DNA of 64,000 nucleotides from the NCBI GenBank assembly GCA_964554805.1, contig CAZKPX010000001.1:124818-188817 (forward strand), read 5' to 3'. Positions 6,238-58,596 of this stretch are shown in pieces. This stretch comes from an uncultured Candidatus Saccharibacteria bacterium. Its GTDB lineage: Bacteria; Patescibacteriota; CAZHWT01. Within the stretch, counting starts at the first letter, position 1. Each line of letters begins with the position of its first letter. Under the pieces are notes generated by a model. It was not told the origin of the DNA. It worked only from the letters and a program-made list of their open reading frames with translations, and did no database searches. The translations under genes and the position numbers were made by a program.

Positions 6238-6719
6238 TATTCTGTACCTTTTTCTGTGCTGCTTTTAGCAGCGGTGACGCGCGACGAGCGACGAGCGACG
6301 GGTTTGGTTTTCTTGTCGCTTGTTGCTTGTTGCTTGTTGCTTGCTTTTGCTTCGGCTAAGGCGGCGCGGCGCTTGCCGAGAATCAGTGGCTCATCTGTCA
6401 ATATGACGCGGACATGAGATGTGCGCTTCATTATAGACATGCCACGACCGCGAGAAGCTGCGCGCATTCTCTTGAGTGTTGGCCCTTCGCCAATTTCAAG
6501 AGTACGGATCCGCAGATTGCTCACAGGTAACTGATGATTGTTAGTAGCGTTTGCAATTGCAGATTGTATCACATCTTGGACAGTTTTGGCAGCCCTCAAA
6601 TTCATGAGGCTCAAAGCGTTGACGGCTTCGGTTGGTGAAAGGTCACGAACTGCAGTGGCTACAAGGCGAACCTTGCGTGGCGACTGACGGACGTACCGAG
6701 CGGAGGCAACAACGTTCAT
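6237..6719 (-). CDS. rplV: 50S ribosomal protein L22 with basic C-terminal extension
   Basis: L22 core. The C-terminal tail is encoded by the GCGACGAG repeat region at 6271-6345. Confidence 0.85.
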   Translation of the reverse strand: MNVVASARYVRQSPRKVRLVATAVRDLSPTEAVNALSLMNLRAAKTVQDVIQSAIANATNNHQLPVSNLRIRTLEIGEGPTLKRMRAASRGRGMSIMKRTSHVRVILTDEPLILGKRRAALAEAKASNKQQATSDKKTKPVARRSSRVTAAKSSTEKGTE

Positions 6720-9526: not shown

Positions 9527-9659
9527 ACAAAAACCCGGGGAGTGCTTTACCTTGGTAACTGTCTCCGCCCTGTGGGCGGACTGTGCTACAAAGGCTTCCT
9601 GGTTCCGCCGGTTGGCGGAGGGATTAAAGCAAAGCCCTAAGCTTTCGCTGCTGTTACGT

Positions 9660-10026: not shown

Positions 10027-10096
10027 GCAGAGAGAAGTGAGAAGAAAGAAGTAAAAGTTTTGGTTATATTCTACTTTTCTCTTCTCGCTTCTCTCT
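10027..10096 (-). promoter_or_regulatory. Long GA/CU-rich inverted repeat (about 25-bp arms) in the S10-operon leader, between tuf and rpsJ
   Basis: GCAGAGAGAAGTGAGAAGAAAGAAGTAAAAG ... ACTTTTCTCTTCTCGCTTCTCTCT form an extended stem-loop. It lies about 60 nt upstream of the rpsJ start. Confidence 0.5.
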
Positions 10097-10116
10097 ATTT
10101 ACTAGTCGCTGGCTCA

Positions 10117-14537: not shown

Positions 14538-14671
14538 ACATGATTGCTCTTAAATAATTTTATTCTTGCTAATGATATTTTGCTAAAAACTTAATCTAAT
14601 TTCAGTCAACCTCACGATTGGATCGGAGTAAAAATTGCGCCCTGCTTTTAAGTGGGCGCTCAACAGGGGGG

Positions 14672-14700
14672 ATTATATACAAAAATCAGTGACGGGTCAA
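14672..14700 (-). promoter_or_regulatory. Sigma70-like promoter for the rpsL (str) operon: TTGACC, 17-nt spacer, TATAAT
   Basis: On the minus strand: cTTGACCcgtcactgatttttgtaTATAATcc. This is a perfect -35/-10 consensus with 17-bp spacing, about 135 nt upstream of the rpsL ATG. Confidence 0.55.
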
Positions 14701-14718
14701 GCCCCATTCTGCTTTATG

Positions 14719-14750
14719 GAGCGACGAGCGACAGGCTACGGGCGACGGGG
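14719..14750. repeat. Copy of the dispersed GCGACGAGCGACRGG heptad-repeat element
   Basis: GAGCGACGAGCGACAGGCTACGGGCGACGGGG. Related copies lie at 6271-6302, 34489-34520, 50001-50038, 51860-51889 and 60165-60194. Confidence 0.6.
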
Positions 14751-14822
14751 AAGAAATTGCTCAAAACTTAGGCAAATAATACCCCTCCTCTAGACCTCGG
14801 GGTTGTTTGCTAAATGGTGGGG

Positions 14823-14854
14823 AATCAGAGCTGGCTAGGTGGCCAGCTCTGATT
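14823..14854 (-). terminator. 12-bp perfect inverted repeat (AATCAGAGCTGG / CCAGCTCTGATT) overlapping the stop codon of the 229-aa gene
   Basis: Palindrome seen directly. The TAG stop (14835-14837) falls in the loop. There is no strong U tract, so the function is uncertain. Confidence 0.4.
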
Positions 14855-31012: not shown

Positions 31013-32203
31013 TTAAAGGTATTTGGCTACATTTGCATAGTGCTCACTCAGAGTCTCAGCATAATACACATTTCCATCACTATCATGCAAGTAGTAAAGG
31101 TATGGTGTGTCTTTTGGCATGGCTACTGCCTTGATGGCTTCGAGGCTGGGATTGGCAATTGGAGCGGGCGGAAGACCCACATTTCGACGGGTATTATAGG
31201 GTGATGGGGTGGCCAGATCCACCTCGGTGATAGCATGTCTCCACCAGGTCTTTTCGGCATTTGAATAGCCGAGGAAATACTGAATGGCTGCATCAGCCCC
31301 AAGTATTTCTCCGGTACGTAGGCGGGTTAGCATGATATCGCCGATAATTGGTCGTTCGTCTCCTGAATATGATTCTCGCTCAATAATAGCAGCTAGGATC
31401 AACGCTTGGTACTCAGTCAGATTCTGCTTGGCAAAGCCGGCTTGAACATCTGGGGTAACCTTTTTAAGGTAATTGTCTAGCATTTTGACAATAAGCTCTT
31501 GGGCGGTGGCGTCACTGTCGATGTGATAGGTATCAGGAAACAAGTAACCCTGGAGGCTGGAGGCTGGAGGCAGTCGATTGCCTAGTTTTTGGCGGAGGGC
31601 GGCGTTTGGGGTAAGGGCAAGATCCGAAAATTCCTTGCCGGTAAAGCTGATTTTGCCTTGCTGATACTGTTTATCTATTTCTTCGGCTAATTCTTCTCGT
31701 CGCCAGCCTTCCGGGAAGGTGATGATGGCTTGTTGTCGTTCAGCAAGCGATAGTCGGTCGGTTAAATCTTTCATTGAAATATTTTGAGGGATGGAAAAGT
31801 TGCCGGCTTGAATGGCGCTCTTGGGATTGAGGCGCAGATACATCTTAAAATACTCAATATTGGCAATTAATCTGGCTTGCAGCAATTGCTGCGATATCTG
31901 ATCGGCAGTTACGCCGGGCTCAATAGTCAAGGCAACCGGCTGGCCGGACGGCTGAGCAGGAGTGTAGGCAGCTTGGTAATACTGATAGCCGAACCAACCA
32001 GCGATGGCTATAGCTAGGATAGCTACGGCGGCGATTGCTAGGCCAATCCATTTGAAGAGCGCGCGTCTAGGTTTGGAGACTGGAGGCTGGAGGCTGGAGG
32101 CTGGGTTGGAAAATTCTAGTGATGGCATACTTGATGACTCTGATGGTGATTGGATGGGGTCTGGATTGGTTGGGGTATTTGGTTCGAGGTTACTATTATT
32201 CAT
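31013..32203 (-). CDS. mltG: YceG/MltG-like endolytic transglycosylase with a Pro/Ser-rich N-terminus and TM anchor
   Basis: Single TM anchor, then a C-terminal YceG-like domain (ITFPEGWRREE..., GLPPAPIANPS). Adjacent to ruvX, as commonly seen. Confidence 0.55.
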   Translation of the reverse strand: MNNSNLEPNTPTNPDPIQSPSESSSMPSLEFSNPASSLQPPVSKPRRALFKWIGLAIAAVAILAIAIAGWFGYQYYQAAYTPAQPSGQPVALTIEPGVTADQISQQLLQARLIANIEYFKMYLRLNPKSAIQAGNFSIPQNISMKDLTDRLSLAERQQAIITFPEGWRREELAEEIDKQYQQGKISFTGKEFSDLALTPNAALRQKLGNRLPPASSLQGYLFPDTYHIDSDATAQELIVKMLDNYLKKVTPDVQAGFAKQNLTEYQALILAAIIERESYSGDERPIIGDIMLTRLRTGEILGADAAIQYFLGYSNAEKTWWRHAITEVDLATPSPYNTRRNVGLPPAPIANPSLEAIKAVAMPKDTPYLYYLHDSDGNVYYAETLSEHYANVAKYL

Positions 32204-32609: not shown

Positions 32610-32828
32610 TACCTGTATTGTACAACACTCTTGGGATTGAAGGTAGGAGGTGGGAGGTGGGAGGTGGGGCGAACTGGTACGGGTGACGAGCACGGGTAAA
32701 GAATCACTATCCATGTATTGACGCGTACTCGTCCTTGTTGCTCGCCCTACAACAACCTCCTACCTTCCACCTTCTGATCTGGGTTATTGCAGCTGGACTA
32801 ATTGTGGATAAAGGGCTAAAATGCGCCC

Positions 32829-39237: not shown

Positions 39238-39611
39238 AAGCTTCCACTCTGCACCTGCAGGGATTACTTATGTACATTTTTATTATATCAACCATTGAGC
39301 TGTTTGTCAGGTACTATAGGTCTTATCTGTATAAATTAATGGTCTGTCTTCGCTGTCATCCTGAACTTGTTGGCTTCGCTTTCAAAATGCGCAGGATCCG
39401 TAGATAGTGGCGATATAGAATGATTCTAAACGAGAACTGCAGCGAGCTGCGAATAAATCCAAACAGGACGGACATGACATGGTTAGATTGCCGCGCTTCG
39501 TTCGCAATGACGGCAGAACAAAATGCAGCTGGATTGCCGCGCTGCGCTCGCAATGACACTTATAAATGGTGCCTGCTCTCTATTCTCTGCTCTCTGCTCT
39601 CTGTTCTCTGC

Positions 39612-41555
39612 TTACTGCAAAACCGCTTTGATGCGGACGACGTCTCGGGAGATTTTTTCGTCTTTTTGGATGGTAAACTTGCCTTCGATAAGGTTGGTAT
39701 TAGCTATGTGAGGGCCGCCGCAGAATTCTCGGGAATAAACTTGTTCGCGGGGGTCAATAGACTCAACTTGAGTGGCTTGATTGTTCTCGTTTGTAGTTGA
39801 CTTCTGTGATCCACCGATTGAGTAGACTTTAACTGTATCGCCGTATTTTTCGCCGAAGAGGCCGATGGAGCCGGATTTTTGGGCTTCTTGTAGCGGCAGG
39901 ATGGCATAGGAAACTGGTAAGGCTTCGGTTATTTTTTGATTGACGATGTCTTCTACTTGTTGCTTTTGCTCCGGAGTTAAGCGGTTTTCGGAAGTGAAAT
40001 CGAAGCGGAGTCGTTCAGGTGTAATATTGGACCCGCGCTGGGCAATGGTGTCCCCTACTACGTCTCGCAAAGCCTGTTGAAGGAGATGGGTTGCAGTATG
40101 ATACTGAACTTCTTTGAAACTGTCTCCGCCGAGTCCACCTTTGAACATGCCGGCTGAACCTTGGCGAGATAGTTCTTGGTGCTTAGTAAATAGTTCCTGG
40201 TATTTGTCTTGGATTTCCAAGCGATCATCGATTGAATATTGGTGAACATTTTCATTTAGTTCATCAATAAAGATGTCAGCTGGGAGACCGAAGGTTTGGA
40301 AGAAGTCAAAAGCCTTGGCTGCTACTTCATCTAATGTGGGTGTTTGACCGCTTAGATTTTTAGTGTATTTTTCAACTTCTTTTAATCCCCTATCGAGAGT
40401 TTGCAAGAATTTCTGCTCTTCTTCGACAAGCTGGTTGAGAATATTGTCACCCACTACTTGAGGATAGGCTTCGGCATATATATTTTGAATAGCCTTGCCG
40501 ACTTCATGTAAAAATGGCTTGTCTATACCGAGTTTCCGACCTTGTCCGATGGCACGTCGTATAACGCGGCGGAGAACATAGCCTTGAGTTTTGTTTGAAG
40601 GCGTTACGCCGTCAGACAATAACCAGATGGCGGCCTTAAGATGGTCTGCGATGACTCTGTAGGAGTATTCATTGCCCTGGTATGCTCCCAGATTGGCAAC
40701 GTTTTCTACGGCTTCAATGATGGGCCAGAATAGGTCGGTTTTAAATACATCCGGAGTATTCTGCTGGGCCGCAAGCATGCGCTCCAAGCCTCCACCAAAA
40801 TCAATATTCTTTTGAGGAAGTTGTTTAAAGCTGCCATCAGCTTGTTTTTGGTATTGCATGAAGACGTTATTGCCGATTTCGAGGTAGCGACCACAGTCGC
40901 AGTTGGGGTGACAATGAGGACCAAATTCTGGGGTATGCTCCACGTCTTCAAATTCATAGAATATTTCTGAGTCTGGGCCACCTGGCTCACCGACTGGCAT
41001 CTTGTCTGGAGTACCAGAGCGGGACCACCAATTCTTTTTGGCACCATAACTAAAGATTCGACCACCTTGCATGCCTTGCTGTTCAGCATTGTCGATGACT
41101 TTGGCATCTATGCCAACCGAAGCGTATAAATCTTCCCAAAGCATAATAGCTTCTTGATCTCGGTCAATGCCATTCGATCCGGCGAAGACGCTGACATATA
41201 ATTTGTGAGTATCTAGGCCGACTTCTTGAGTTAAAAATTCAAACATCCACTGCAACTGCTCTGTCTTGAAATAATCGCCGAGACTCCAGTTGCCCAACAT
41301 CTCGAAGACAGTGGTGTGGCGATTGTCGCCGACTTCTTCAATATCCTGGACGCGAAAACATCGCTGACTGTCGGCGATGCGGGTTCCTTGAGGATGAGCT
41401 TCGCCCAGTAGATATGGCAACATGGGCTGCATTCCGGATCCAGTAAAAAGGGTAGTCGGATCGTTGTCTGGCACTAATGGTGCCGATGGGACAATGGCGT
41501 GCTGCTTTGATTTATAAAAATCTAGATATTTTTGGCGAAGTTCATTTCCGGTCAT
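39612..41555 (-). CDS. alaS: Alanine--tRNA ligase (short form without C-Ala domain); start at the internal MTGNELRQKY
   Basis: N-terminal class-II catalytic domain (FTGSGMQPM, RCFRVQDIEEVG, WSLGDYFK) and an editing domain with HxxxH...CGGPH. Confidence 0.9.
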   Translation of the reverse strand: MTGNELRQKYLDFYKSKQHAIVPSAPLVPDNDPTTLFTGSGMQPMLPYLLGEAHPQGTRIADSQRCFRVQDIEEVGDNRHTTVFEMLGNWSLGDYFKTEQLQWMFEFLTQEVGLDTHKLYVSVFAGSNGIDRDQEAIMLWEDLYASVGIDAKVIDNAEQQGMQGGRIFSYGAKKNWWSRSGTPDKMPVGEPGGPDSEIFYEFEDVEHTPEFGPHCHPNCDCGRYLEIGNNVFMQYQKQADGSFKQLPQKNIDFGGGLERMLAAQQNTPDVFKTDLFWPIIEAVENVANLGAYQGNEYSYRVIADHLKAAIWLLSDGVTPSNKTQGYVLRRVIRRAIGQGRKLGIDKPFLHEVGKAIQNIYAEAYPQVVGDNILNQLVEEEQKFLQTLDRGLKEVEKYTKNLSGQTPTLDEVAAKAFDFFQTFGLPADIFIDELNENVHQYSIDDRLEIQDKYQELFTKHQELSRQGSAGMFKGGLGGDSFKEVQYHTATHLLQQALRDVVGDTIAQRGSNITPERLRFDFTSENRLTPEQKQQVEDIVNQKITEALPVSYAILPLQEAQKSGSIGLFGEKYGDTVKVYSIGGSQKSTTNENNQATQVESIDPREQVYSREFCGGPHIANTNLIEGKFTIQKDEKISRDVVRIKAVLQ

Positions 41556-42854: not shown

Positions 42855-43084
42855 ACGAGCGAATATTGAATATGGGATATGGGATATGGGGTATGAAAGT
42901 TTATATCTAGAGACTTTTTAACACGCGTTTAGAGAAAATGCTAGTGAAGTAGGGTTTAGTGGTGATTTAAAACTTATACCGTAAAGGTCAAAACTGCAAC
43001 TTAAAACTAAAAACTCTGAGATTCGAGTTAGAAATTTTTGGTTGCAGTTTTGCCTTTTTCATCTTGAGTTTTACGTTTTAAGAC

Positions 43085-44053
43085 TTAAGATCCGCGGCGG
43101 AAGAAAAGTTTCTTGGTCGACTTGGCGTCTTTGTCTTCTTTGCGACCTTTGTCTTCTGCGTCAGCAGCCTTTGGCTTTGACTTGGCTTCTGCCTTGGTTT
43201 CTTTATCTTTGGCTTTGTCCGAGAAATGCTTGGTGGATTTATCAGAATCTTGGGCATCCATCTTGTCTTCCTTCACAACAGGAGTGGCTTCTTCTAAAAT
43301 TCGGGTGGTGTAATGAGCAGTGACTGGTGCTTTAGGCGCTTCGGCGATTTCTTCTGAAGCTAGCATTGGTCGAGCAGTTGATTCCTCCTGGGGCTCCTCT
43401 TTGGCTACCTCTTCAATAGCCTCTTCGGTGGCAGTTTGACTGTGCATAGCGTAATGATGGCTGTGAGATCGACGACGGGTTGAATGAACTGAGACAGGCG
43501 CAGGCCTATGGTCCTCTGGGCTATCTTCCTCGTCTTCAATTTCTCTAATCATGAGGACATCTGGTACTTCAAGTTTGCTGGAGTCTAATTTATTAGAATC
43601 TAATTTATTTGAATCGGCCTTGGCTTCCAGCTGGTTGGCCGGGACTATTTCTTCGCCATACTCTTCCCAGCCACTGCGGAAAGCTTCGGCTATTTCGGAG
43701 ACGGTTTCGCGAGCGGTTTCGATGTGTTGCTCGATAGTTGAGGCTAGATGTTGAGCCTGGTGAGTAGCTTCGCCAATTTTTTGCGGAGCAGCCTCTACCA
43801 AACCGGCTGCACCTTCATTTAACGCTTGGTGCAGGGATTTGCTGACACCTTTGGCTTCCTTGGCTAGTTGGTAGGCTTCGGTCTCCCACTCTTTGGCGTA
43901 TTGCTTGACTAAATGACGCATTTCCTGGCCGTTTTTGGGGGTTAATAATAGGGCAGCAGCAGCTCCGGCCATAGCACCAACTACGGCACCGACGATGAAT
44001 TCGGCTTGTTTTGGATCTACTGGTTGGTGTTCTTGATTAGTCTGATGATCCAT
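43085..44053 (-). CDS. YtxH-like protein with a long acidic/basic low-complexity C-terminal region
   Basis: FIVGAVVGAMAGAAAALLLTPKNGQEMR matches the YtxH/DUF948-type N-terminal helix. Contains KLDSNKLDSSKL tandem repeats. Confidence 0.55.
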   Translation of the reverse strand: MDHQTNQEHQPVDPKQAEFIVGAVVGAMAGAAAALLLTPKNGQEMRHLVKQYAKEWETEAYQLAKEAKGVSKSLHQALNEGAAGLVEAAPQKIGEATHQAQHLASTIEQHIETARETVSEIAEAFRSGWEEYGEEIVPANQLEAKADSNKLDSNKLDSSKLEVPDVLMIREIEDEEDSPEDHRPAPVSVHSTRRRSHSHHYAMHSQTATEEAIEEVAKEEPQEESTARPMLASEEIAEAPKAPVTAHYTTRILEEATPVVKEDKMDAQDSDKSTKHFSDKAKDKETKAEAKSKPKAADAEDKGRKEDKDAKSTKKLFFRRGS

Positions 44054-44423
44054 GGCGATGTTGATCCTCCTTGGATTGTTCTTGTTGTTTAGCAATGATG
44101 CGCGAGACAGTCTGGAAGGCGGTCAGGCCAACTGAAGCAGGGCCTAAGAATTTGGTGGTGAGGTGAGAAACGGAAGAGGTGGCACTGGAAACTGAGCTGA
44201 CCATGGTACGAAGACCTTGGAGAACTTCGTCTGCGTATTGCTGCTGAATCACGGCCTTGGCTGAGACTTTTTCAACATCAGCCAGGATACGCTCGGTGCG
44301 AGCCAAGCTCTTGCGAAGATCTTTGAGTACGAAGAATAATTGAATACCAATAACAATCAGTGTTACACCAAGCAACACGATCATAATAGAGAGCAGAATC
44401 TGAGTTCCGGTTAATGAAAACAT
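44037..44423 (-). CDS. DUF948-like small membrane protein (N-terminal TM, then coiled coil)
   Basis: 128 aa. ILLSIMIVLLGVTLIVIGIQLFFVL followed by a helical region. Upstream of the YtxH-like gene, as in ytxG-ytxH arrangements. Confidence 0.45.
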   Translation of the reverse strand: MFSLTGTQILLSIMIVLLGVTLIVIGIQLFFVLKDLRKSLARTERILADVEKVSAKAVIQQQYADEVLQGLRTMVSSVSSATSSVSHLTTKFLGPASVGLTAFQTVSRIIAKQQEQSKEDQHRHGSSD

Positions 44424-44464: not shown

Positions 44465-44640
44465 TCATGAGTCAAAGGGCAAAGGTCAAATCTAGCAAGC
44501 ATGGGAGAGTTAAGGCAAAAATCAAAAGGCAAAGGGCAAAAGTTAAGCTTTGAAAGTTAAATGTTTAACCACGACATAAAATAAACTTTATACTTTTGAT
44601 TTTTATTTTTGCCTTTTGACTTTGGACCTTTGACCTTACT
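44465..44640. repeat. Imperfect inverted repeat built from AAAGGCAAAGGGCAAAAG / CTTTTGCCTTTTGACTTT units (5' region of the DUF948 gene)
   Basis: Left arm 44469-44542 and right arm 44593-44637 are reverse-complementary with G/T substitutions. The same unit occurs at 55672-55763. Confidence 0.4.
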
Positions 44641-45854: not shown

Positions 45855-48044
45855 TTAGAATTCTTCTGCGGAGGCTTGGTTGCTGCTGCCGCCAAGGATG
45901 CCGTCAACATCTCGACGGAGAACTTCTCGAGGCTTGGAGCCTTCACCTGGACCCACGACGCCTGCTTCTTCTAATTGATCAAGAATTCTGGCCGCCCGGG
46001 CGTAACCGACTGACAAACGACGTTGCATGAGTGAGGATGAGGCTTTTTCGCTGGCGCAGATAAGCTTGACGGCTTCGCCAAAGAGCGGATCTCTATCCTG
46101 GCTATTGCCGCCTCCCCCACCAACTCCAGTACCAATGTTGGTGGTTGTGGTCAACACTTCTTCTGTGTAATCGGCTTGAACACCCTGGCCGCGGATATGA
46201 TCGAGCATCTTTTTGATTTCTTCATCGCGAACCCAGTTGCCTTGAATACGCATTGGTTTGGCAGCATCGGGTGGCATAAACAGCATGTCCCCCTTGCCGA
46301 GCAGTTTTTCTGCGCCAGGATGATCCATAATAACGCGGGAATCAGTGTTGCTGGAGACGTTAAAGGCGATTCGGGCAGGGATGTTAGCCTTGATTAAACC
46401 GGTAATAATATCGGAAGATGGCCTCTGGGTAGCCAAGATAAGGTGGATACCGACCGCACGAGCTTTTTGAGCAATACGAACGATAGCGTCCTCTACTTCG
46501 GCCGGGGCGGTCATCATCAAATCGGACAACTCATCAATGATAATAACGATGTAGGGCAAGGCTTGGAAGCCAGACATCTCGTTGAAGCCTTCGATATTAC
46601 GCGCGCCAACTTCGGCCAATTTTTTGTAGCGACGATCCATTTCGCCAGTGGCCCACTTGAGAGCTGATACGACCTTGTCGTTTTCAGTGATAACGGGGGC
46701 CAAGAGGTGGGGGATGCCATTGTAGCCAGTTAATTCGACAAACTTAGGGTCGACTAAGATTAACTTTAATTCTGAAGGACTGTTGTTGAACAACAACGAA
46801 CTAATAAAGGCGTTGATGGCTACTGACTTACCAGAGCCGGTTGAACCGGCAACCAGTAAATGCGGCATGCGAGTCAAGTCGGCGATAACGGCATGGCCAG
46901 AGACACTTTGGCCTAGTGGCAATAAAAGTCGTGATTTAACTTCTTTGGCTTCTGGGGATTCAAGGATTGATCGGAGACCGACCACGGCGGCTTTGTTGTT
47001 AGGTATTTCAATACCAACTAAACTCTTGCCGGGGATTGGGGCTTCGACGCGAACAGCACCACTCTTAGCAGCTACAGCCAAAGCCAGGTCATTGGATAAG
47101 GTGGTAATTTTGGAAATCTTGGTTCCGCTGGCTAATTCAAGAGCATATTGAGTGACGGTCGGACCAATATTCACCTCAACCACTTTGGCTTGAATGCCGA
47201 ATGACTCTAGGGTTCGCTCGATAATTGCGGCTGTGCCCTTGATGTCGCCGGGCTCGCCTTTGCTATTTTGATTGCTCAATAAGGTTAAGGGTGGGTAGTC
47301 CCAAACAACACTTTCACCGGCAGCATTGGACAGTACTTGGGTTGAGTTGAGCGGAGTGGCGGCTGGTTTTGGCTCAATAGGTGCGGCGGCGGCAACTGCT
47401 CGAGTCCCAACCTCATTAACCGCAAAGGCAGCTCCGGTGTATGAGGGGGTGGGCTGAGAACTTTCTTTATCTTTTTTGGCTAGGGCTTTTTTGCTGGCCC
47501 TGGCAGCAGATTCTGAAGCTTGGAAGAAGAAGCTGAGTGAGGTATTGAGTAGGACTAAGAAGCCGGCTATTATCCATAGCATGAGTAAGAACCAGGCCCC
47601 AAAGGGTGTGACGAACCTGGATACGCCATCGAAAATAACATAGCCCACTGCTCCACCGCCAATGCCTAATTCAGCACGCTGGAGCGCGCTAAATGGAGAG
47701 AACATGGATGATATGGGGTGCAGCAGAGCGGCCAGACCGACAGTGATGATGGTTAGGCCGAGTAGTACATTGGGCTTGCCTAGCCCCCATCCGACATGGC
47801 TCAGCAAAAGAGCCAAGGCTAACAGAATGACGGGCACCATGAATGAAGCCCAGCCCACCAGGCCATTGAGCCAGGCTTGAAGAGTGTTGCCGGCTCCAGC
47901 TGCTTGTCCAATAAAGGCTAACAGCGTTAACCCGGCAAGCGCAAAACATACCAAGGCGATCAGAGACTGGATGCTCTCGGCTTTTAGCTTAAATTTTTGC
48001 TTCTTCTTATATTTGGTGGGTCTTTTGGCTTTTTTGGCAGGCAT
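45855..48044 (-). CDS. ftsK: DNA translocase FtsK/SpoIIIE
   Basis: 4 N-terminal TM helices. Motor domain with GSTGSGKS Walker A, LLFNNSPSELKLILVDPK, and a C-terminal gamma-like wHTH. Confidence 0.9.
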   Translation of the reverse strand: MPAKKAKRPTKYKKKQKFKLKAESIQSLIALVCFALAGLTLLAFIGQAAGAGNTLQAWLNGLVGWASFMVPVILLALALLLSHVGWGLGKPNVLLGLTIITVGLAALLHPISSMFSPFSALQRAELGIGGGAVGYVIFDGVSRFVTPFGAWFLLMLWIIAGFLVLLNTSLSFFFQASESAARASKKALAKKDKESSQPTPSYTGAAFAVNEVGTRAVAAAAPIEPKPAATPLNSTQVLSNAAGESVVWDYPPLTLLSNQNSKGEPGDIKGTAAIIERTLESFGIQAKVVEVNIGPTVTQYALELASGTKISKITTLSNDLALAVAAKSGAVRVEAPIPGKSLVGIEIPNNKAAVVGLRSILESPEAKEVKSRLLLPLGQSVSGHAVIADLTRMPHLLVAGSTGSGKSVAINAFISSLLFNNSPSELKLILVDPKFVELTGYNGIPHLLAPVITENDKVVSALKWATGEMDRRYKKLAEVGARNIEGFNEMSGFQALPYIVIIIDELSDLMMTAPAEVEDAIVRIAQKARAVGIHLILATQRPSSDIITGLIKANIPARIAFNVSSNTDSRVIMDHPGAEKLLGKGDMLFMPPDAAKPMRIQGNWVRDEEIKKMLDHIRGQGVQADYTEEVLTTTTNIGTGVGGGGGNSQDRDPLFGEAVKLICASEKASSSLMQRRLSVGYARAARILDQLEEAGVVGPGEGSKPREVLRRDVDGILGGSSNQASAEEF

Positions 48045-48050
48045 TTTTTT

Positions 48051-48100
48051 AAAGTGAGCAGAGAGAAGAGAACAGAGAGAAGTCTTTCTGCTCTCACTGC
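48051..48100 (-). promoter_or_regulatory. GA/CU-rich inverted-repeat element immediately 5' of ftsK (the mRNA leader is CU-rich, with no Shine-Dalgarno)
   Basis: AAAGTGAGCAGAGAGAAGAGAACAGAGAGAAG...CTTTCTGCTCTCACT. A second copy lies at 48170-48200. Confidence 0.4.
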
Positions 48101-48255
48101 AGTACGATTATTAATTGTACGGGTTTGGCAGCCTTAATGGCTGGTCGATATTTAGTATAACACTTTATATTTAAGTGAGAAGAGAGAAGCAGAAGCGATG
48201 AGGTGTTTGAGCTTCTGACGAGAAACACCCCTGCCATCCAGACAGGGGTGTATGA

Positions 48256-48807
48256 CTAATCAAAGCCAGGTCCATGCAAATCGATGCTTCGATTGCCGAG
48301 CAGGGTGTTGATACATGCGCTGCCAGCGCGTCGCACAACTGACTTAAGTCCAGACCAGCAGACTCTCATCCCTTGCATAATCAGGAGCCCGGTCAGGTGG
48401 AGACTGATGATGCAGACTGTGACAAAAGCCCCTTTTACAACTTCGACCAACAACTGCTGGAGTTGGTAGTAGTTGAGATGGCCCACTAAGGGCAGATAGG
48501 GCGAGGGCTGACTGACAGTGCTCGGCGCAGCTTTGTAGTCTAGCCAGCCGAGCCATCTGTACCCTAGATATAGCCAAGACGCGACTAAGCACCCGATGAA
48601 ACTTAGCCATAGTACAGCTACAACAATTCGTCCCAACAGGCTCAGCCGATAGACGAATGACCAGGAAATCATTTCAACGATCAAGGCTGCAGCTAAAATG
48701 ACCGCAACTGACCAAATGGTCAAGAGGTTGGCATCCGACACGAACCGGGTCAAGAATTGATCCAGACTGCCAGACAGGAGATTGATCGGAGTTCTTTCCG
48801 TTTCCAT
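48256..48807 (-). CDS. Hypothetical membrane protein (183 aa, about 4 TM)
   Basis: Hydrophobic ORF. A terminator hairpin (ACACCCCTG...CAGGGGTGT) follows at 48200-48240. Confidence 0.4.
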   Translation of the reverse strand: METERTPINLLSGSLDQFLTRFVSDANLLTIWSVAVILAAALIVEMISWSFVYRLSLLGRIVVAVLWLSFIGCLVASWLYLGYRWLGWLDYKAAPSTVSQPSPYLPLVGHLNYYQLQQLLVEVVKGAFVTVCIISLHLTGLLIMQGMRVCWSGLKSVVRRAGSACINTLLGNRSIDLHGPGFD

Positions 48808-49903: not shown

Positions 49904-52081
49904 TTATTCAGCCTGAGGTTGAGTGTCTGTTGGGGCGTCGGATGAGTCGACTGAATCAGGGGCGATGGCGGCTGATTTGGGGGCCTTGGTCGCTTCGGTG
50001 GCGGAGCGACGAGCGACAGGCGACGAGCGACGAGCGGGTGCTGGCTTGGCGGCTGCGCTGGCTGGGGCGGTGATTGGGCGGCGAGGAGTCGAGGTGCCGG
50101 TGCCGCGCATTTCGATGAGAACTGGCAGAACAATTGGGGTTCGGTCGGTTTCTTGCTTGAAGTACTTGCCGAGACGATCTTGAATGCGAGAGCGGATAGT
50201 TCCCCACTCTTGGTTCTTGGTTTGCGGATCGGTGATAACAGAGCGAGCAATAGAACGAGCTTCAGCCATTAACTTTTCGTTGAGACGAGCGTAAACAAAG
50301 CCGCGAGTTTGGACTTCGACTTCGCCAATCAGTTCTTTATCTTTGTTGAGTGTCGCACCGACGATGAAGACACCGGAATCGGCTAGCTGTTTGCGATCGG
50401 CAATGACAACTTCGCCAATGTCCCCTACTCCCAGACCATCGACCATGACGGAGGTATATGGGTGCTCTTCGCCCAGCTTGGCGTTGCCTTGGTTATCAAA
50501 GAGGACTTCCTGACCCGCGACAACCGTGAAAATGTGACCTTCAGGGTATCCCATTTTTTGGGCCATCTGCTTGTAGGCCTTGAGTTGACGCATCTGACCA
50601 GAGATAGGTACTAGGTATTTGGCTTTGACTAAAGCAATAGTTGTTTTGAGTTCTTCGGCGGCGGCATGTCCGGATACGTGAAGATTGTTCATAATATCGG
50701 AATAAGCGATGGTGGCGCCCAGGTCGGTCAGCTCGTCAATGATATCGTTGATGCCGCTTTCGCTACCAGGAATTGGATCGGCGGAGAAAATGACTTTGTC
50801 TTCCGTCTTAATGGTAAAGAGCTTGTGTTGACCTGATGTCAGTCGGGCTAAGGCCGAACCTTCTTGGCCATACGCACCAGTTAGAATGATTAATTGCTGA
50901 TCATCTGGGTAATCAGAGATAGCAGTATCGCGAACGACAACGCCGTCAGGGATTTGAGCATAGCCCAAACGTGTGGCGATGCCCATGACGTTATCAATGC
51001 TTCGACCAGCAAAGGCAACCTTGCGGTTGTAGCGCATGGCCACATTGATGGCTTGCTGCATACGGGTAACGTTGGAAGAGATGGTTGTTAGGAAGACGCG
51101 GCCTTTGGCGTTGCGCATTTCGGTATCCAGGCGATCTTCTACAACTGCTTCGGATGGGGTGTAGCCGGGTTTTTCGACACGTAGACAGTCGGACATGAGG
51201 GCCAGAACGCCTTCGCCACCGGCGCGAGCCAATTTGTCGACTTCGATAATAGTACCGTCAACGCTAGTCCAGTCATACTTGTAGTCACCGGTGTGGATAG
51301 TTGATCCAATTGGCGTCTTGATGACATAGCCAAAGGTGTCTGGGATGGAGTGGTTGACGCGGAATGGATTGAGGGTGAAATGACCGAAGGTGTATTCTTG
51401 GTCTGGCTCTATTTCGTGTAAGTCTAATTTGGCTCGGAACTCTGATAGTTTGCCTTTGATTAATTCAAGGGCAAAGCGAGGAGCGTAGATTGGAACATTC
51501 ATTTTGGGTGCTAAATAAGGGACAGCACCGATATGATCCTCGTGACCATGGGTGATAACGAGGGCCTTGATGCGATGTAGTTTATCCTTTAGATAGGTCA
51601 TATCTGGGATAACAATATCGATACCAAGCATGTCGCTAGAAGGGAAGCCCATGCCGCAGTCAACAACAATAATGTCGTTGCCATACTCGTAGACAAACAT
51701 GTTTTGGGTGACAAAACCATTACCTCCTAATGGTAAGACTTTTAGGACTGGGGCGCCTTCAGGATTGAAGGACCCTTGCTCGTTGAGAGACTGTTGTGCC
51801 ATACGAGCACGATTGATTGGCTGATGGCGATTGCGTCGGACTGGAGCGCCGCTGTTGGCGGGAGCGACAGGCGACGTGCGACGAGTAGGAGCAGCACCTG
51901 TACTACCTACGGCTTTGGGGGCTGCAGGTCGAGCAGTTGGGCTGGTAGCACCTGTTGGGGTGGTTGGAGTCGAAGCTGAAGTAGGAGCGCTTGGCTTTGA
52001 GCCGGCGCTGGCATTGATGCCATTGTTGGTCCGAGGACGGCCGCCTGATCTATTTGGGTTTGGTCGGAAATATTCTGACAT
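49904..52081 (-). CDS. rnj: Ribonuclease J (beta-CASP metallo-beta-lactamase) with low-complexity N- and C-terminal extensions
   Basis: VITHGHEDHIGAVPYL motif and a beta-CASP region. Ser/Pro/Ala/Arg-rich tails of about 130 aa (N) and about 90 aa (C) contain GCGACGAG repeats at 51860-51889 and 50001-50038. Confidence 0.85.
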   Translation of the reverse strand: MSEYFRPNPNRSGGRPRTNNGINASAGSKPSAPTSASTPTTPTGATSPTARPAAPKAVGSTGAAPTRRTSPVAPANSGAPVRRNRHQPINRARMAQQSLNEQGSFNPEGAPVLKVLPLGGNGFVTQNMFVYEYGNDIIVVDCGMGFPSSDMLGIDIVIPDMTYLKDKLHRIKALVITHGHEDHIGAVPYLAPKMNVPIYAPRFALELIKGKLSEFRAKLDLHEIEPDQEYTFGHFTLNPFRVNHSIPDTFGYVIKTPIGSTIHTGDYKYDWTSVDGTIIEVDKLARAGGEGVLALMSDCLRVEKPGYTPSEAVVEDRLDTEMRNAKGRVFLTTISSNVTRMQQAINVAMRYNRKVAFAGRSIDNVMGIATRLGYAQIPDGVVVRDTAISDYPDDQQLIILTGAYGQEGSALARLTSGQHKLFTIKTEDKVIFSADPIPGSESGINDIIDELTDLGATIAYSDIMNNLHVSGHAAAEELKTTIALVKAKYLVPISGQMRQLKAYKQMAQKMGYPEGHIFTVVAGQEVLFDNQGNAKLGEEHPYTSVMVDGLGVGDIGEVVIADRKQLADSGVFIVGATLNKDKELIGEVEVQTRGFVYARLNEKLMAEARSIARSVITDPQTKNQEWGTIRSRIQDRLGKYFKQETDRTPIVLPVLIEMRGTGTSTPRRPITAPASAAAKPAPARRSSPVARRSATEATKAPKSAAIAPDSVDSSDAPTDTQPQAE

Positions 52082-52084
52082 ACT

Positions 52085-52180
52085 ACTTTGAAGGAGAAAG
52101 GAGAGGGATCCGCCAGTTGGCGGAGTGAGAAGTTCTTTTTAACTTCTTTTTCTGTTATCTCTTTTCTCTTATTATTCTTT
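52085..52180 (-). promoter_or_regulatory. GA/CU-rich leader element with two short hairpins immediately 5' of rnj
   Basis: GGAGAAAGGAGAGGG, CCGCCAGTTGGCGG hairpin, and GAGTGAGAAGTTCTTTTTAACTTCTTTTTCTG. Confidence 0.35.
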
Positions 52181-52313
52181 CTGGCCGAAAATCGGCCTAT
52201 TACTTACGATACGCCATGAAGCGCCTGTGGCGCGGATATTGGATATGGGGCATAGACAGATATGTTAGTCTATGTCCAGGTTGTGGCGTAAGGTTATTCA
52301 AAGGGGCACTGAG

Positions 52314-53435: not shown

Positions 53436-53446
53436 ACAAGCTTAGT

Positions 53447-53491
53447 ATACATGATTTTGCTTAGCAAAATCATGTATACTAAGCGCGACTC
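53447..53491. promoter_or_regulatory. Perfect 21-bp inverted repeat GCTTAGTATACATGATTTTGC-TTA-GCAAAATCATGTATACTAAGC between pnp and the Lon-like gene
   Basis: Seen directly. It lies 12 nt upstream of the Lon-like start codon and about 70 nt downstream of the pnp stop. Confidence 0.5.
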
Positions 53492-55655: not shown

Positions 55656-55671
55656 ACTTGGTTGTGGGGCA

Positions 55672-55763
55672 GAAATCAAAGGGCAAAAGGCAAAGGGCAA
55701 AAATGTGTCAAGTTATATTTTTGACTTTCATTTTTGACTTTTGCTTTTTGACTTTTGACTTTC
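55672..55763. repeat. AAAGGGCAAAAGGCAAAGGGCAAAAA / TTTTTGACTTTTGCTTTTTGACTTTTGACTTT inverted-repeat element in the pnp 5' leader
   Basis: Arms at 55672-55705 and 55716-55763. Same unit family as 44465-44640. Confidence 0.4.
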
Positions 55764-55880
55764 TAAGCCCCTTCTCCTTTAGGATAATGGATTTAATTCT
55801 GGATTAGCTAGAATATAGGTTAATTGCTCTTAGAATGACACAGCCTGCAGTTGAAGGCAGGCTGAGCAAGAAATTTTGAT

Positions 55881-57517: not shown

Positions 57518-57535
57518 AAGATTTAAAAATAATGA

Positions 57536-57595
57536 AAAGTGAGAAGGAGAAGTGAGAAGTTTTTGATTTCTTCTGGCTTCTTCTTTTTACTTCTA
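57536..57595 (-). promoter_or_regulatory. GA/CU-rich imperfect inverted repeat immediately 5' of nrnA
   Basis: AAAAGTGAGAAGGAGAAGTGAGAAG...CTTCTGGCTTCTTCTTTTTACTTCT. Confidence 0.35.
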
Positions 57596-57757
57596 GCTTA
57601 TATGTATCACCTATATGTACAGTCTTTACTCTGTAGACAAGTGCGATAACAGTTTATATCACTTATCCTATAGGTATGTCAAGTATTTGATATAAGCGGT
57701 TCTATTGAGGTGATGTATTGATTATAAAGGTAGTGTCAACAGACAGGCTAAATTCAA

Positions 57758-57805
57758 TAATTTATTCAAATTTAACGCGAAAGGCGACCCCGCTTGGGGT
57801 CGCCT
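57758..57805 (-). terminator. Terminator: 10-bp perfect hairpin AGGCGACCCC-GCTT-GGGGTCGCCT plus a U-rich tail
   Basis: Seen directly, downstream of the 146-aa gene. Confidence 0.5.
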
Positions 57806-58288: not shown

Positions 58289-58561
58289 TCAGAGCGCAGT
58301 CTAAAAAAGTGCTGTGCCCTAGTTGGACAAGATGAGGAACGAATTGTTAATTATGCTACAAGCCCCGCTTCTTATGTACTTAATAATCACAAAAAGCGGT
58401 TTTTAGGTTGGCCTTTTTGCAAGGCTTGCGCATAGTTCACTACTATTGAAGTAGTTCTTCAATAGTGCTTCCTCACTCTAATGACCTTTTGGCAATAGTG
58501 TCGAGTGAATGCACCAACAGTTAGTCATTGAGGATTAGCAGCCGCTACTCAGATGTAGGTA

Positions 58562-58596
58562 CAAAAAAGACGGCCATTGAGGGTCGTCTTTTTTGT
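58562..58596 (-). terminator. infB terminator (AAGACGGCC-ATTGAG-GGTCGTCTT flanked by A6 and T6)
   Basis: 9-bp stem with one G-U pair. Reads as a terminator on either strand. Confidence 0.55.

What the first reader, a model, noticed from the sequence alone, without database searches (positions are those of the whole stretch)
48045..48200. Family of GA-rich (CU-rich in the mRNA) palindromic elements in 5' leaders; ftsK lacks a Shine-Dalgarno
AAGTGAGAAG(A)GAGAAG-type purine tracts with a partner pyrimidine arm occur at 10027-10096 (the S10 leader), 48051-48100 and 48170-48200 (5' of ftsK), 52085-52180 (5' of rnj) and 57536-57595 (5' of nrnA). In reverse orientation they also occur at 39565-39610 (3' of alaS). 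All the host genes are on the minus strand, so the mRNA leaders are CU-rich hairpins. ftsK, rnj and pnp have no recognisable SD, whereas tuf has AGGAGG. This suggests an alternative translation-initiation or regulatory element, for example a ribosomal protein S1-dependent CU-rich enhancer or a binding site for a global RNA-binding protein.
Basis: seen in the sequence. Interest (0 to 1): 0.5.

Follow-up and report, generated by a model that had tools for sequence, protein, structure and literature searches.

The report
Seven-base repeat arrays before SD-less genes
The GA-rich "palindromes" are real, but they are one genome's version of fast-evolving seven-base microsatellites that this group of ultra-small (CPR) bacteria accumulates between genes, often right before start codons of genes that never had a ribosome-binding site; a dedicated function is possible but unproven.

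Summary
The purine tracts exist at every stated coordinate and exceed chance. Exact AAGTGAGAAG occurs 4 times at 3 intergenic sites. They are not a distinct element family. They are the GA/CU-flavoured members of a clade-wide habit of heptamer (7-nt) tandem arrays. Lag-7 self-similarity gives 7 arrays against 0 in shuffles, and period 7 accounts for 45 of about 117 TRF arrays in 207 kb of this Microgenomates-like clade.

Arrays often occur as inverted pairs, always purine arm first. The unit sequence is genome-specific and turns over completely between relatives at the same intergenic region. At nrnA, rnj and tuf|rpsJ the window carries 70-100 extra bases that relatives lack.

ftsK, rnj, pnp and nrnA do lack an SD, with start codons confirmed by N-terminal alignment. 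So do about 40% of window genes, and so do the orthologues without the element. ftsK looks leaderless (TATAAT, 6-9 nt, ATG) in 11 of 21 distant relatives.

Arrays do cluster next to start codons: 12 of 25 lie within 25 nt, against 3.9 expected. Start-proximal arrays are pyrimidine-rich on the mRNA. This mirrors the published TAACTGA repeats of Beggiatoaceae. A translation role is therefore plausible but unproven.

Verdict: a new member of a known kind, of moderate interest.

The parts
48051..48100 (-). Flagged element: 3' part of the ftsK 5' leader. On the mRNA, a short purine arm (AGUGAGAGCAGAAAG, 48100-48086) is followed by a 33-nt C/U-rich, G-poor heptamer-like tract (CUUCUCU CUGUUCU CUUCUCU CUGCUCA CUU, 48083-48051) that ends 6 nt before the ATG.
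   Evidence: Sequence. Fold -16.4 kcal/mol, z -2.2. No counterpart in L161-L166, L170 or L171, whose leaders carry other repeat units.
48042..48044 (-). ftsK start codon (gene 45855-48044); no SD core within 4-13 nt upstream.
   Evidence: Pfam FtsK_alpha, FtsK_SpoIIIE and FtsK_gamma. ATG column invariant in 6 genomes. SD scan.
48154..48181 (-). Promoter-like site TTCTCA-16-TATACT with a TG extension. The AAAGTG(T/C)TATACT / GTGTATAAT box is conserved upstream of ftsK in all close relatives.
   Evidence: Consensus scan; alignment A4. The transcription start site is not mapped (inference).
48173..48198 (-). Second GA-rich tract (C/U-rich on the gene strand: CGCUUCUGCUUCUCUCUUCUCACUU). It overlaps the -35 hexamer and the region upstream of it, so it is not part of the predicted leader.
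   Evidence: Only a small CAGAAGC/GCUUCUG stem forms (-8.5 kcal/mol).
48222..48250 (-). Canonical GC-rich stem-loop followed by UUUCU: likely terminator of the upstream gene (48256-48807), separate from the GA elements.
   Evidence: fold; sequence.
10027..10098 (-). Best palindrome of the GA family (28-nt arms, 86% complementary), in the tuf-rpsJ spacer. It starts 82 nt after the tuf stop and ends 59 nt before the rpsJ ATG.
   Evidence: Fold -33.2 kcal/mol, z -6.6. Absent from the 85-120 nt tuf|rpsJ spacers of L167-L169 (EF-Tu 89-91% identical).
52088..52182 (-). rnj leader element: purine-rich tract (52182-52133), two small stem-loops, then CCCUCUCCUUUCUCCUUC (52110-52090) 8 nt before the ATG at 52081.
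   Evidence: z -3.4. About 85-90 extra nt relative to five relatives, whose leader ends AGAAAGAAAAAAU AUG (A6). Start confirmed (A1).
57520..57597 (-). nrnA leader element: TGAGAAG-type inverted arrays (57533-57560 and 57567-57592) within an insert of about 70 nt between a conserved AUAUAAG and the ATG at 57517.
   Evidence: Pairwise alignment with L162 shows the insert (A5). The sense fold is weak (-13.2, z -1.4; antisense -28.7).
39573..39612 (-). Unpaired heptamer array (AGAGCAG x5.7 on the gene strand) directly after the alaS stop; no inverted partner.
   Evidence: TRF; no fold. L161 has a different repeat (ACTCGT) in the same spacer.
55666..55771 (-). A-rich member of the same build: pnp leader hairpin. 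The 5' arm is AAAAGUC-type heptamers, the 3' arm UUUUGCC-type, and the base is GGGGC/GCCCC. It ends 10 nt before the true pnp ATG (55655).
   Evidence: -38.2 kcal/mol, z -5.5. A hairpin at the same position in L162, L163, L164 and L170.
55774..55780 (-). SD-like AAAGGAG 2 nt 5' of the pnp hairpin base. It is conserved as AAAGGAG(G) or GAAGGAAG in five genomes.
44512..44622 (-). A-rich heptamer hairpin (AAGGCAA / ACUUUUG units) starting about 10 nt after the rodZ stop, in a terminator-like position. L161 has a counterpart with a different sequence.
42968..43073 (-). A-rich/U-rich 49-nt-arm hairpin starting 12 nt after the stop of the YtxH-like gene (43085-44095).

Best explanation
The flagged tracts are lineage-specific heptamer microsatellites. 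In this Microgenomates-like CPR clade, 7-nt units are copied in tandem far more often than any other period, most simply by replication slippage. The arrays persist mainly between genes. Arrays frequently end up as inverted pairs with the purine-rich arm 5' and the pyrimidine-rich arm 3'. This is the same polarity as the clade's ordinary A-tract/stem/U-tract terminators, so some hairpins look like stretched terminators or stretched leader stems.

The GA/CU unit (GAAGWGA / NNAGAGA) is simply this genome's flavour. Relatives carry CCTAAAT, TATTTTC, TTTCGAA, GCATCCA or AAAAGTC-type units at the same positions.

At ftsK, a conserved TG-TATACT promoter (shown as sequence; the start site is inferred) now drives a leader of about 110 nt. 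Its last 45 nt is the G-poor C/U tract. The gene has no SD because its ancestors had no leader or only a very short one. Translation therefore starts SD-independently on an almost G-free, weakly structured leader (inferred). The array is tolerated there, and may help as an unstructured landing site. It is not a conserved, sequence-specific regulatory element.
For: - Period-7 excess: 22 of 48 TRF rows in the window. Lag-7 self-match gives 7 arrays against 0 in shuffles, and 5 in 82 kb of close relatives with other lags near 0. Period 7 accounts for 45 of about 117 arrays in 207 kb of the clade, in intergenic regions and also inside CDS.
- Genome-specific unit: GAGAAGNGAGAAG has 0 matches in 171 loci.
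- Turnover at orthologous spacers: ftsK leader, rnj, tuf|rpsJ and the region upstream of rpsL.
- Inserts of 70-100 nt relative to relatives: nrnA, rnj, tuf|rpsJ.
- Purine-first polarity: 12 against 3 in the clade, about 1:1 in shuffles. Canonical terminators have the same polarity.
- No sense-strand RNA signature.
- ftsK carries TATAAT-N6-9-ATG in 11 of 21 distant relatives, and TATACT-N10-ATG in L162.
- 19 of 47 window genes lack an SD.
- No Rfam family matches.
- Literature: heptamer SSRs are over-represented in many bacteria, are intergenic, vary between close relatives and sometimes occur inverted. Polymerase slippage has been proposed as the cause (PMC4692102).
Against: - Arrays are strongly enriched next to start codons: 12 of 25 within 25 nt, against 3.85 expected.
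- All start-proximal arrays are pyrimidine-rich on the mRNA.
- Within one genome, the same unit sits in front of different SD-less genes. L161 has a 29-nt stretch 93% identical before rnj and ftsK. L171 has the same array before ftsK and rodZ.
- Together these points suggest either selection by a trans-acting factor or a copying mechanism, not pure local slippage.
- Inserting 70-100 nt between a promoter and the start codon of genes such as ftsK is unlikely to be neutral.
- Only 64 kb of the source genome and about 145 kb of close relatives were available.
Confidence: 0.55

Rival explanations
1. Functional SD substitute or regulator. The pyrimidine-rich heptamer arrays directly 5' of start codons are binding sites for a single-strand RNA-binding protein with a footprint of about 7 nt (ribosomal protein S1 or a cold-shock-domain protein). 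This protein recruits or blocks the 30S subunit on SD-less mRNAs. The purine arm, where present, masks the site and makes initiation conditional.
For: Start-codon proximity. Pyrimidine-rich on the mRNA in all 12 start-proximal arrays. Downstream genes lack an SD. The same unit is shared by different genes within a genome but differs between genomes. The 5'-UTR hairpins are weaker in sense than in antisense, as expected if strong structure is selected against. A published parallel exists for TAACTGA repeats, with S1, Csp and Csr proposed, and with CspB reported to bind heptamer repeats one protein per heptamer (PMC4679880).
Against: No sequence conservation between relatives. L162 does without arrays at ftsK, rnj and nrnA. 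Arrays also occur far from starts, upstream of promoters, after stops and in CDS. The presence of rpsA or csp genes could not be checked, and there is no expression data.
Confidence: 0.27
2. Transcript-end hairpins. The purine-first inverted arrays act as intrinsic terminators or attenuators, or as 3'/5' stabilisers against PNPase and RNase J. In the leaders of rnj, pnp and nrnA they would give feedback control of RNA-decay genes.
For: Three hairpins start 10-12 nt after a stop codon where no other terminator is seen: 42968-43073, 44512-44622 and L161 8312-8440. The polarity (A-rich arm, U-rich arm) equals that of bidirectional terminators. The pnp hairpin position is conserved in 5 genomes, with changes on both sides of the stem base. 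Downstream genes include rnj, pnp and nrnA.
Against: The terminator scan does not call the flagged GA hairpins. None is followed by a clean U-run. ftsK, nrnA and rnj already have separate terminators or stems upstream. The GA hairpins are absent from relatives. The sense folds of ftsK5 and nrnA5 are weak.
Confidence: 0.12
3. Dispersed mobile element (MITE- or REP-like) or DNA-level structure (cruciform, or polypurine H-DNA) with a role in the chromosome rather than in the RNA.
For: Exact 10-13-mers are shared between distant loci. Near-identical arrays occur at two loci in L161 and in L171. The palindromes fold as well or better on the non-coding strand. Inserts are present relative to relatives.
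Against: Alignment of the four GA hairpins shows no conserved ends, loop or length, only low-complexity similarity (A3). No terminal inverted repeats or target duplications are visible at the nrnA insert. The arms differ by periodic mismatches, as expected from independent slippage in each arm.
Confidence: 0.06

Closest known systems
TAACTGA heptamer direct repeats of marine Beggiatoaceae, some cyanobacteria and Bacteroidetes (MacGregor 2015, PMC4679880)
   Same: Tandem 7-nt units of 2-6+ copies, intergenic, mostly within a few nt upstream of start codons. The downstream ORFs mostly lack a canonical RBS. The units are G-poor. Indels come in 7-nt steps between strains. S1, Csp or Csr binding has been proposed but not tested.
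   Different: The unit sequence differs: TAACTGATAACTGA has no match in the window. Here the unit changes from genome to genome. Many arrays are paired with an inverted copy to form hairpins. The host is a CPR bacterium.
[quoted passage not shown]
   Same: Period 7, intergenic enrichment, and extensive length and sequence variation between close relatives at the same spacer. Occasional inverted arrangement with stem-loop potential. Polymerase slippage is the suggested origin.
   Different: Those repeats are G-rich and can form quadruplexes. Here the units are GA/CU- or A/U-rich, and no start-codon association was reported for them.
S1-dependent, SD-independent initiation on pyrimidine- or A/U-rich unstructured leaders, and leaderless initiation (general knowledge, not tested here)
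   Same: SD-less start codons preceded by G-poor tracts. Orthologues have a TATAAT box 6-10 nt from the ATG.
   Different: No evidence for S1 binding or for mapped transcription starts. The tracts are repeats and are partly sequestered in hairpins.
Split ribosome-binding sites in which a hairpin brings SD and AUG together (phage T4 genes 38 and 25), and the E. coli rpsO-terminator / pnp-leader RNase III hairpin (from memory)
   Same: Applies to the pnp member only. The layout is an rpsO terminator-like stem, then AAAGGAG(G), then a long hairpin, then 10-14 nt, then ATG, in five genomes.
   Different: The intervening hairpin is 80-105 nt rather than about 20 nt. In E. coli the SD lies downstream of the hairpin. 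No cleavage or translation data exist. The flagged GA/CU sites at ftsK, rnj and nrnA have no SD 5' of the stem.

Membership tests
Heptameric intergenic simple-sequence repeats (STRR / TAACTGA-type) | Tandem copies of a 7-nt unit, far more frequent than other periods | tested here: met
   TRF: 22 of 48 rows in the window and 45 of about 117 in the clade. Lag-7 gives 7 arrays against 0 in shuffles.
Heptameric intergenic simple-sequence repeats (STRR / TAACTGA-type) | Mainly intergenic location | tested here: met
   About 60% of period-7 arrays lie in intergenic regions, which make up a minority of the sequence. The rest lie in low-complexity coding stretches.
Heptameric intergenic simple-sequence repeats (STRR / TAACTGA-type) | Rapid change of copy number or unit between close relatives at the same spacer | tested here: met
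   ftsK, rnj, pnp, rodZ-3', alaS-3', tuf|rpsJ and rpsL-upstream spacers compared in 6-10 genomes.
Heptameric intergenic simple-sequence repeats (STRR / TAACTGA-type) | Same unit sequence as a described family (TAACTGA; STRR1-3) | tested here: not met
   No TAACTGA dimer with up to 2 mismatches. The units here are GAAGWGA, NNAGAGA and AAAAGKC. The STRR units were not searched separately.
TAACTGA-type start-codon-proximal repeats | Arrays lie within a few nt upstream of start codons of ORFs without an RBS | tested here: met
   12 of 25 arrays lie within 25 nt of a start, against 3.85 expected. ftsK, rnj, pnp and nrnA lack an SD. The list was hand-curated and orthologous sites are not independent.
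Intrinsic (rho-independent) terminator | G+C-rich stem of 5-20 bp with a short loop, followed directly by a U-run | tested here: not met
   The consensus scan calls 58561-58596, 57777-57793 and others, but none of the GA hairpins. No U-run follows 10027-10098 or 48051-48100.
Curated cis-regulatory RNA (S10 leader, r-protein leaders, any Rfam family) | Match to the family covariance model at gathering score | tested here: not met
   Only 3 tRNAs pass gathering. At E<=1 the hairpins hit only miRNA-precursor models, far below threshold.
REP/BIME or MITE-type dispersed palindromic element | Copies share a defined consensus with conserved ends (TIRs), similar length, and often target-site duplication | tested here: not met
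   Alignment A3 of four GA hairpins in both orientations shows 59% mean identity from low complexity only, with no common ends. No duplication is seen at the nrnA insert. Only 64 kb was examined.
S1- or CSD-protein-dependent translational enhancer | Single-stranded pyrimidine-rich tract 5' of the start that binds the protein and raises initiation | not testable with these tools
   The tract is present. Binding, the presence of rpsA or csp in the genome, and any effect on translation could not be examined.
Split SD-hairpin-AUG ribosome-binding site (pnp member only) | SD 5' of a stable hairpin whose base places it about 5-15 nt from the AUG; anatomy conserved | tested here: inconclusive
   AAAGGAG(G) lies 2-6 nt before the stem, and 10-14 nt separate the stem from the ATG, in window, L162, L163, L164 and L170. 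The effective spacing is 12-20 nt. Function was not tested.

The most novel reading that the evidence does not exclude
In this CPR clade, genome-specific heptamer arrays placed directly before start codons would form a 'programmable' SD-independent initiation or regulation code. A 7-nt-footprint RNA-binding protein (S1 or a cold-shock-domain protein) would read the array and co-evolve with the unit sequence. This would explain why different SD-less genes in one genome share a unit while orthologous sites in sister genomes carry another. Inverted purine arms would act as built-in masks, and the pnp member would use the hairpin to join a distant SD to its AUG.
Probability: 0.12. Interest if true: 0.75.

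Novelty: new member of a known kind. Interest (0 to 1): 0.4.

Why it matters
Heptamer microsatellites upstream of RBS-less genes have been noted in cyanobacteria, Beggiatoaceae and Bacteroidetes, and remain unexplained. Two full-text searches found no paper describing them in Patescibacteria (one search found none; one search returned three papers, and the two read said nothing relevant).

The same pattern in a Microgenomates-like CPR lineage has three useful properties:
- complete unit turnover between sister genomes;
- clear insertion polarity relative to conserved promoters;
- orthologues that look leaderless.

Together these give a compact comparative system for asking whether such arrays are mutational debris in unconstrained leaders or real SD substitutes.

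There is also a practical point. Gene callers that expect an SD may misplace starts here. The first in-frame start of the pnp ORF is 45 nt too far upstream.

Tried and rejected
- **Rfam.** Searches at gathering score and at E<=1 found no known leader or sRNA. The only hits were sub-threshold miRNA-precursor look-alikes for the long hairpins.
- **Retrieving the source genome.** The exact FtsK and EF-Tu sequences exist on an NCBI contig of 446,789 bp (P0001, P0121). The contig look-up has no record of the gene, so no genome-wide test was possible.
- **Collection scans with FtsK.** The genome contigs and metagenome-contig scans gave only relatives of about 50-63% identity. These were useful for the leaderless-ftsK observation but too distant for the elements.
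- **MITE/REP idea.** Alignment A3 shows no defined element.
- **Terminator idea for the GA hairpins.** They are not called by the consensus scan and have no U-run.
- **RNA-level selection test.** Comparing sense and antisense folding energy and G.U pairs showed no sense-strand advantage.
- **'SD then hairpin then AUG' as a general rule.** It holds only for pnp. ftsK, rnj and nrnA have no usable SD 5' of the stem. At nrnA, the AGGUGAU box would lie about 30 nt or more from the AUG.
- **A cryptic -10 box next to the ftsK ATG that would keep it leaderless.** None was found for ftsK or rnj. For nrnA only a weak TATTTT lies 8 nt upstream.
- **Literature on SD use or leaderless mRNAs in CPR**. Nothing relevant was found.

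Full report
**Context.** The window is a gene-dense stretch of a Candidate Phyla Radiation (Patescibacteria) genome.
- It carries the S10/spc ribosomal cluster, tuf-fusA-rpsG-rpsL, rpoBC, a short alaS, rodZ, ftsK, rnj, a Lon-like AAA+ gene, pnp, rpsO and nrnA, almost all on the minus strand.
- FtsK relatives in reference genomes are Blackburnbacteria, Woesebacteria, Amesbacteria, Levybacteria and similar (Microgenomates) at about 50-63% identity.
- The exact protein sits on an NCBI contig of 446,789 bp that could not be fetched.
- A protein search plus contig look-ups gave a small clade of syntenic relatives. L161 has FtsK 85% identical, L162 76%, L166 74%, L163 71%, L164/L165 70%, L171 71% and L170 69%. 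L167-L169 have EF-Tu 89-91% identical.

- Exact AAGTGAGAAG occurs four times at three intergenic loci.
- A 13-mer consensus with up to 2 mismatches gives 24 hits against 13 +/- 3.8 in shuffles, and the excess is concentrated in the six loci.
- A palindrome reads purine arm then pyrimidine arm on both strands. The mRNAs therefore carry a 5' GA arm and a 3' CU arm.
- Sense-strand folding is strong for tuf|rpsJ (-33.2 kcal/mol, z -6.6), moderate for rnj (z -3.4) and for the flagged ftsK site (-16.4, z -2.2), not significant for nrnA (z -1.4) and absent for the alaS 3' tract.
- The second ftsK tract (48173-48198) is not in the leader. It overlaps the -35 of a promoter-like TTCTCA-16-TG-TATACT, whose -10 box is conserved in every close relative.

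**What the elements belong to.** The tandem-repeat scan shows that period 7 dominates the window, with 22 of 48 rows.
- A lag analysis finds 7 arrays at lag 7 and essentially none at other lags or in shuffles. The close relatives show the same pattern, and distant Microgenomates show it only weakly.
- In 207 kb of the clade, period 7 accounts for 45 of about 117 arrays. Most are intergenic, but several lie in low-complexity coding stretches such as CCTCCAG runs.
- The GA tracts are heptamer arrays too: TGAGAAG at 57533, GAAGWGA at 10029, NNAGAGA at 48051 and 39573.
- Hairpins of the same construction but with A-rich units (AAAAGTC, AAAGGCA) lie 5' of pnp (55666-55771), after rodZ (44512-44622) and after the YtxH-like gene (42968-43073).
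- Every one of these low-complexity hairpins is 'purine arm first'. In the clade set the count is 12 purine-first to 3 pyrimidine-first, against about 1:1 in shuffles.
- The clade's ordinary terminators have the same polarity (AAAAAGNC...GNCTTTTT). The A-rich units look like iterated terminator half-sites; this is an inference.

**Comparative anatomy.** The unit sequence is genome-specific.
- GAGAAGNGAGAAG has no match in any of the 171 fetched loci.
- Relatives carry other repeats at the same spacers. Before ftsK, L161 has CTAAATC x3.6, L171 has TATTTTC/TAGATTC and L166 has TTTCGAA-type repeats. L163, L164 and L170 have non-repetitive but G-poor leaders. L162 has only 10 nt between TATACT and the ATG.
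- At nrnA, the window aligns with L162 through the promoter (TTGACA-17/18-TATAA), the leader and the first codons. It carries about 70 extra nt, the GA/CU hairpin, between a conserved ATATAAG and the ATG.
- At rnj, five relatives end their leader with AGAAAGAAAAAAT ATG. The window and L161 have 85-90 extra nt of unrelated repeat there.
- The tuf|rpsJ spacer is 85-120 nt with one GC stem in L167-L169 and 211 nt in the window. The GA hairpin is the surplus.
- The elements are therefore recent, fast-changing insertions or expansions, not conserved motifs.
- Their arms differ by periodic mismatches, as if each arm slipped on its own.
- They fold as well or better as antisense RNA (nrnA -13 against -29, pnp -37 against -50, rnj -26 against -33). 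There is thus no G.U signature of selection for the sense RNA structure.
- No Rfam family matches, and no MITE-like consensus emerges.

**The missing Shine-Dalgarno.** Start codons were checked first.
- The RNase J N-terminus MSEYF is conserved.
- The true pnp start is ATG 55655 (MNKTIKVERQ), not the upstream TTG.
- The ftsK ATG column is invariant.
- I counted an SD as four consecutive bases of AGGAGGU ending 4-13 nt upstream. By this criterion 28 of 47 window genes have an SD, including nearly all ribosomal protein genes and tuf. The other 19 lack one, among them ftsK, rnj, pnp, nrnA, the Lon-like gene, rodZ, rpoB, rpoC and rpsL.
- Being SD-less is therefore common here and is not tied to the element.
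- It also pre-dates the element. In 11 of 21 distant Microgenomates loci, ftsK has a near-perfect TATAAT 6-9 nt before its ATG, the sequence signature of a leaderless mRNA. L162 has TATACT-N10-ATG.
- The Lon-like gene looks leaderless in the window and in most close relatives.
- The simplest reading is that these genes never relied on an SD, and that in the window's lineage repeats grew between promoter and start codon.

**Evidence that keeps a functional reading alive.** Four observations point this way.
- Across the window and close relatives, 12 of 25 intergenic arrays end within 25 nt of the downstream start codon, against 3.85 expected if placed uniformly within their own spacers (P about 2.5e-5). 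The list was hand-curated and orthologous sites are not independent.
- All 12 are pyrimidine-rich on the mRNA.
- Within a genome, different SD-less genes share the same unit. In L161 a 29-nt stretch is 93% identical before rnj and ftsK. In L171 the same array lies before ftsK and rodZ. In the window CUCACUUU-type tracts lie before ftsK and nrnA.
- This is the pattern MacGregor described for TAACTGA repeats in Beggiatoaceae, cyanobacteria and Bacteroidetes, with S1, Csp or Csr proposed as readers (PMC4679880). Heptamer SSR over-representation, intergenic location, turnover between close relatives, occasional inverted arrangement and a slippage origin are also in the literature (PMC4692102).

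**Weighing.** I put 0.55 on 'heptamer slippage products that accumulate in unconstrained, SD-independent leaders and on pre-existing stems'. On this reading the C/U tract before ftsK is at most a generic unstructured landing region. I put 0.27 on a real SD-substitute or regulatory site read by an S1- or CSD-type protein. I put 0.12 on terminator, attenuator or stabiliser roles, which are plausible for the stop-proximal A-rich hairpins but less so for the flagged site. I put 0.06 on a mobile or DNA-level element.

**A by-product worth noting: the pnp leader.** Window, L162, L163, L164 and L170 all share one layout: an rpsO terminator-like stem, then AAAGGAG(G) (GAAGGAAG in L163), then 2-6 nt, then a hairpin of 80-105 nt, then 10-14 nt, then the ATG. 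No SD lies between the hairpin and the start.
- L163, L164 and L170 share a non-repetitive stem with changes on both sides at its base.
- In the window and L162 the stem has been 'heptamerised', but its GGGG/CCCC base, polarity and spacing are kept.
- This suggests that structure, not sequence, is under selection there.
- It raises a split-RBS or RNase III-type autoregulation hypothesis for pnp. That hypothesis was not tested.

**Novelty and score.** This is a new member of a known kind (intergenic heptamer SSRs, TAACTGA/STRR-like) in a phylum where two full-text searches found no description of it. Interest is 0.4. The flagged motif itself is ordinary repeat DNA. The start-codon clustering, the genome-specific units and the conserved pnp layout are unexplained and testable.

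Noticed in passing
window 55666-55780 (also L162 3185-3299, L163 3482-3599, L164 4110-4215, L170 4272-4381): The pnp leader has an SD-like AAAGGAG(G) immediately 5' of a long hairpin, and only 10-14 nt with no SD between the hairpin base and the ATG. This holds in five genomes. It is a possible split ribosome-binding site or an RNase III-type autoregulatory stem downstream of an rpsO terminator-like stem (55838-55863).
   Followed up: partly
window 53436-53484: A perfect 22-nt-arm palindrome (GCTTAGTATACATGATTTTGCT / AGCAAAATCATGTATACTAAGC) lies directly upstream of the Lon-like AAA+ gene. Its 3' arm contains TATACT 8 nt before the ATG (a leaderless-like layout), so the -10 box is mirrored in both orientations. 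Most close relatives also show TATACT-N6-9-ATG for this gene.
   Followed up: partly
L002-L027, L077 (ftsK starts); L162 9985-10003: In 11 of 21 distant Microgenomates-like genomes, ftsK has a near-perfect TATAAT 6-9 nt upstream of its ATG. This suggests leaderless ftsK mRNAs are widespread in this class.
   Followed up: partly
window 39486-39511 and 39532-39557; L162 5408-5433 (minus): Two copies of a 26-nt internally palindromic motif, GATTGCCGCGCT-N-CG-N-TCGCAATGAC, lie in the spacer 3' of alaS. One copy lies in a different spacer (5' of the Lon-like gene) in L162. This is a separate dispersed repeat family, with 0 matches expected by chance.
   Followed up: partly
window 6276-6343, 31550-31571, 32074-32104, 32641-32668, 50004-50036; L161 3912-3936, 11625-11653, 13626-13651: Period-7 arrays (GACGAGC, CTTGTTG, CCTCCAG-type, GAGCGAC) also lie inside coding sequences, including the C-terminal part of rnj. 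They give 7-residue-periodic low-complexity protein segments.
   Followed up: no
window 51745-52081 (RNase J residues 1-112): RNase J carries a Pro/Ala/Thr/Ser-rich N-terminal extension of about 110 residues ahead of the metallo-beta-lactamase domain. Its length varies between relatives (proteins of 630-725 aa) while the first residues (MSEYF / MPQFF) are conserved.
   Followed up: partly
window 9527-9659; L167 11630-11910: The spacer between rpsJ and rplC is unusually long (133-281 nt) and structured. It has a conserved stem followed by a U-run (CCCGGGTTTTTGTTTGCC in the window, CCCAGGTCTTTTGTTTGCC in L167) just before rplC, which may be an attenuator inside the S10 operon.
   Followed up: no
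window 1-64000: GC skew is positive on the + strand throughout, while nearly all genes, including the ribosomal and rpoBC operons, are on the minus strand. The coding strand is therefore C-rich and A-rich.
   Followed up: no
window 14538-14834; L167 6340-6391: A near-consensus promoter (TTGACC-17-TATAAT with TGT) lies upstream of rpsL. Further upstream is a heptamer array whose unit differs between genomes: a CCGTCGC-type unit in the window, and GCATCCA x7.4, perfect, in L167.
   Followed up: no
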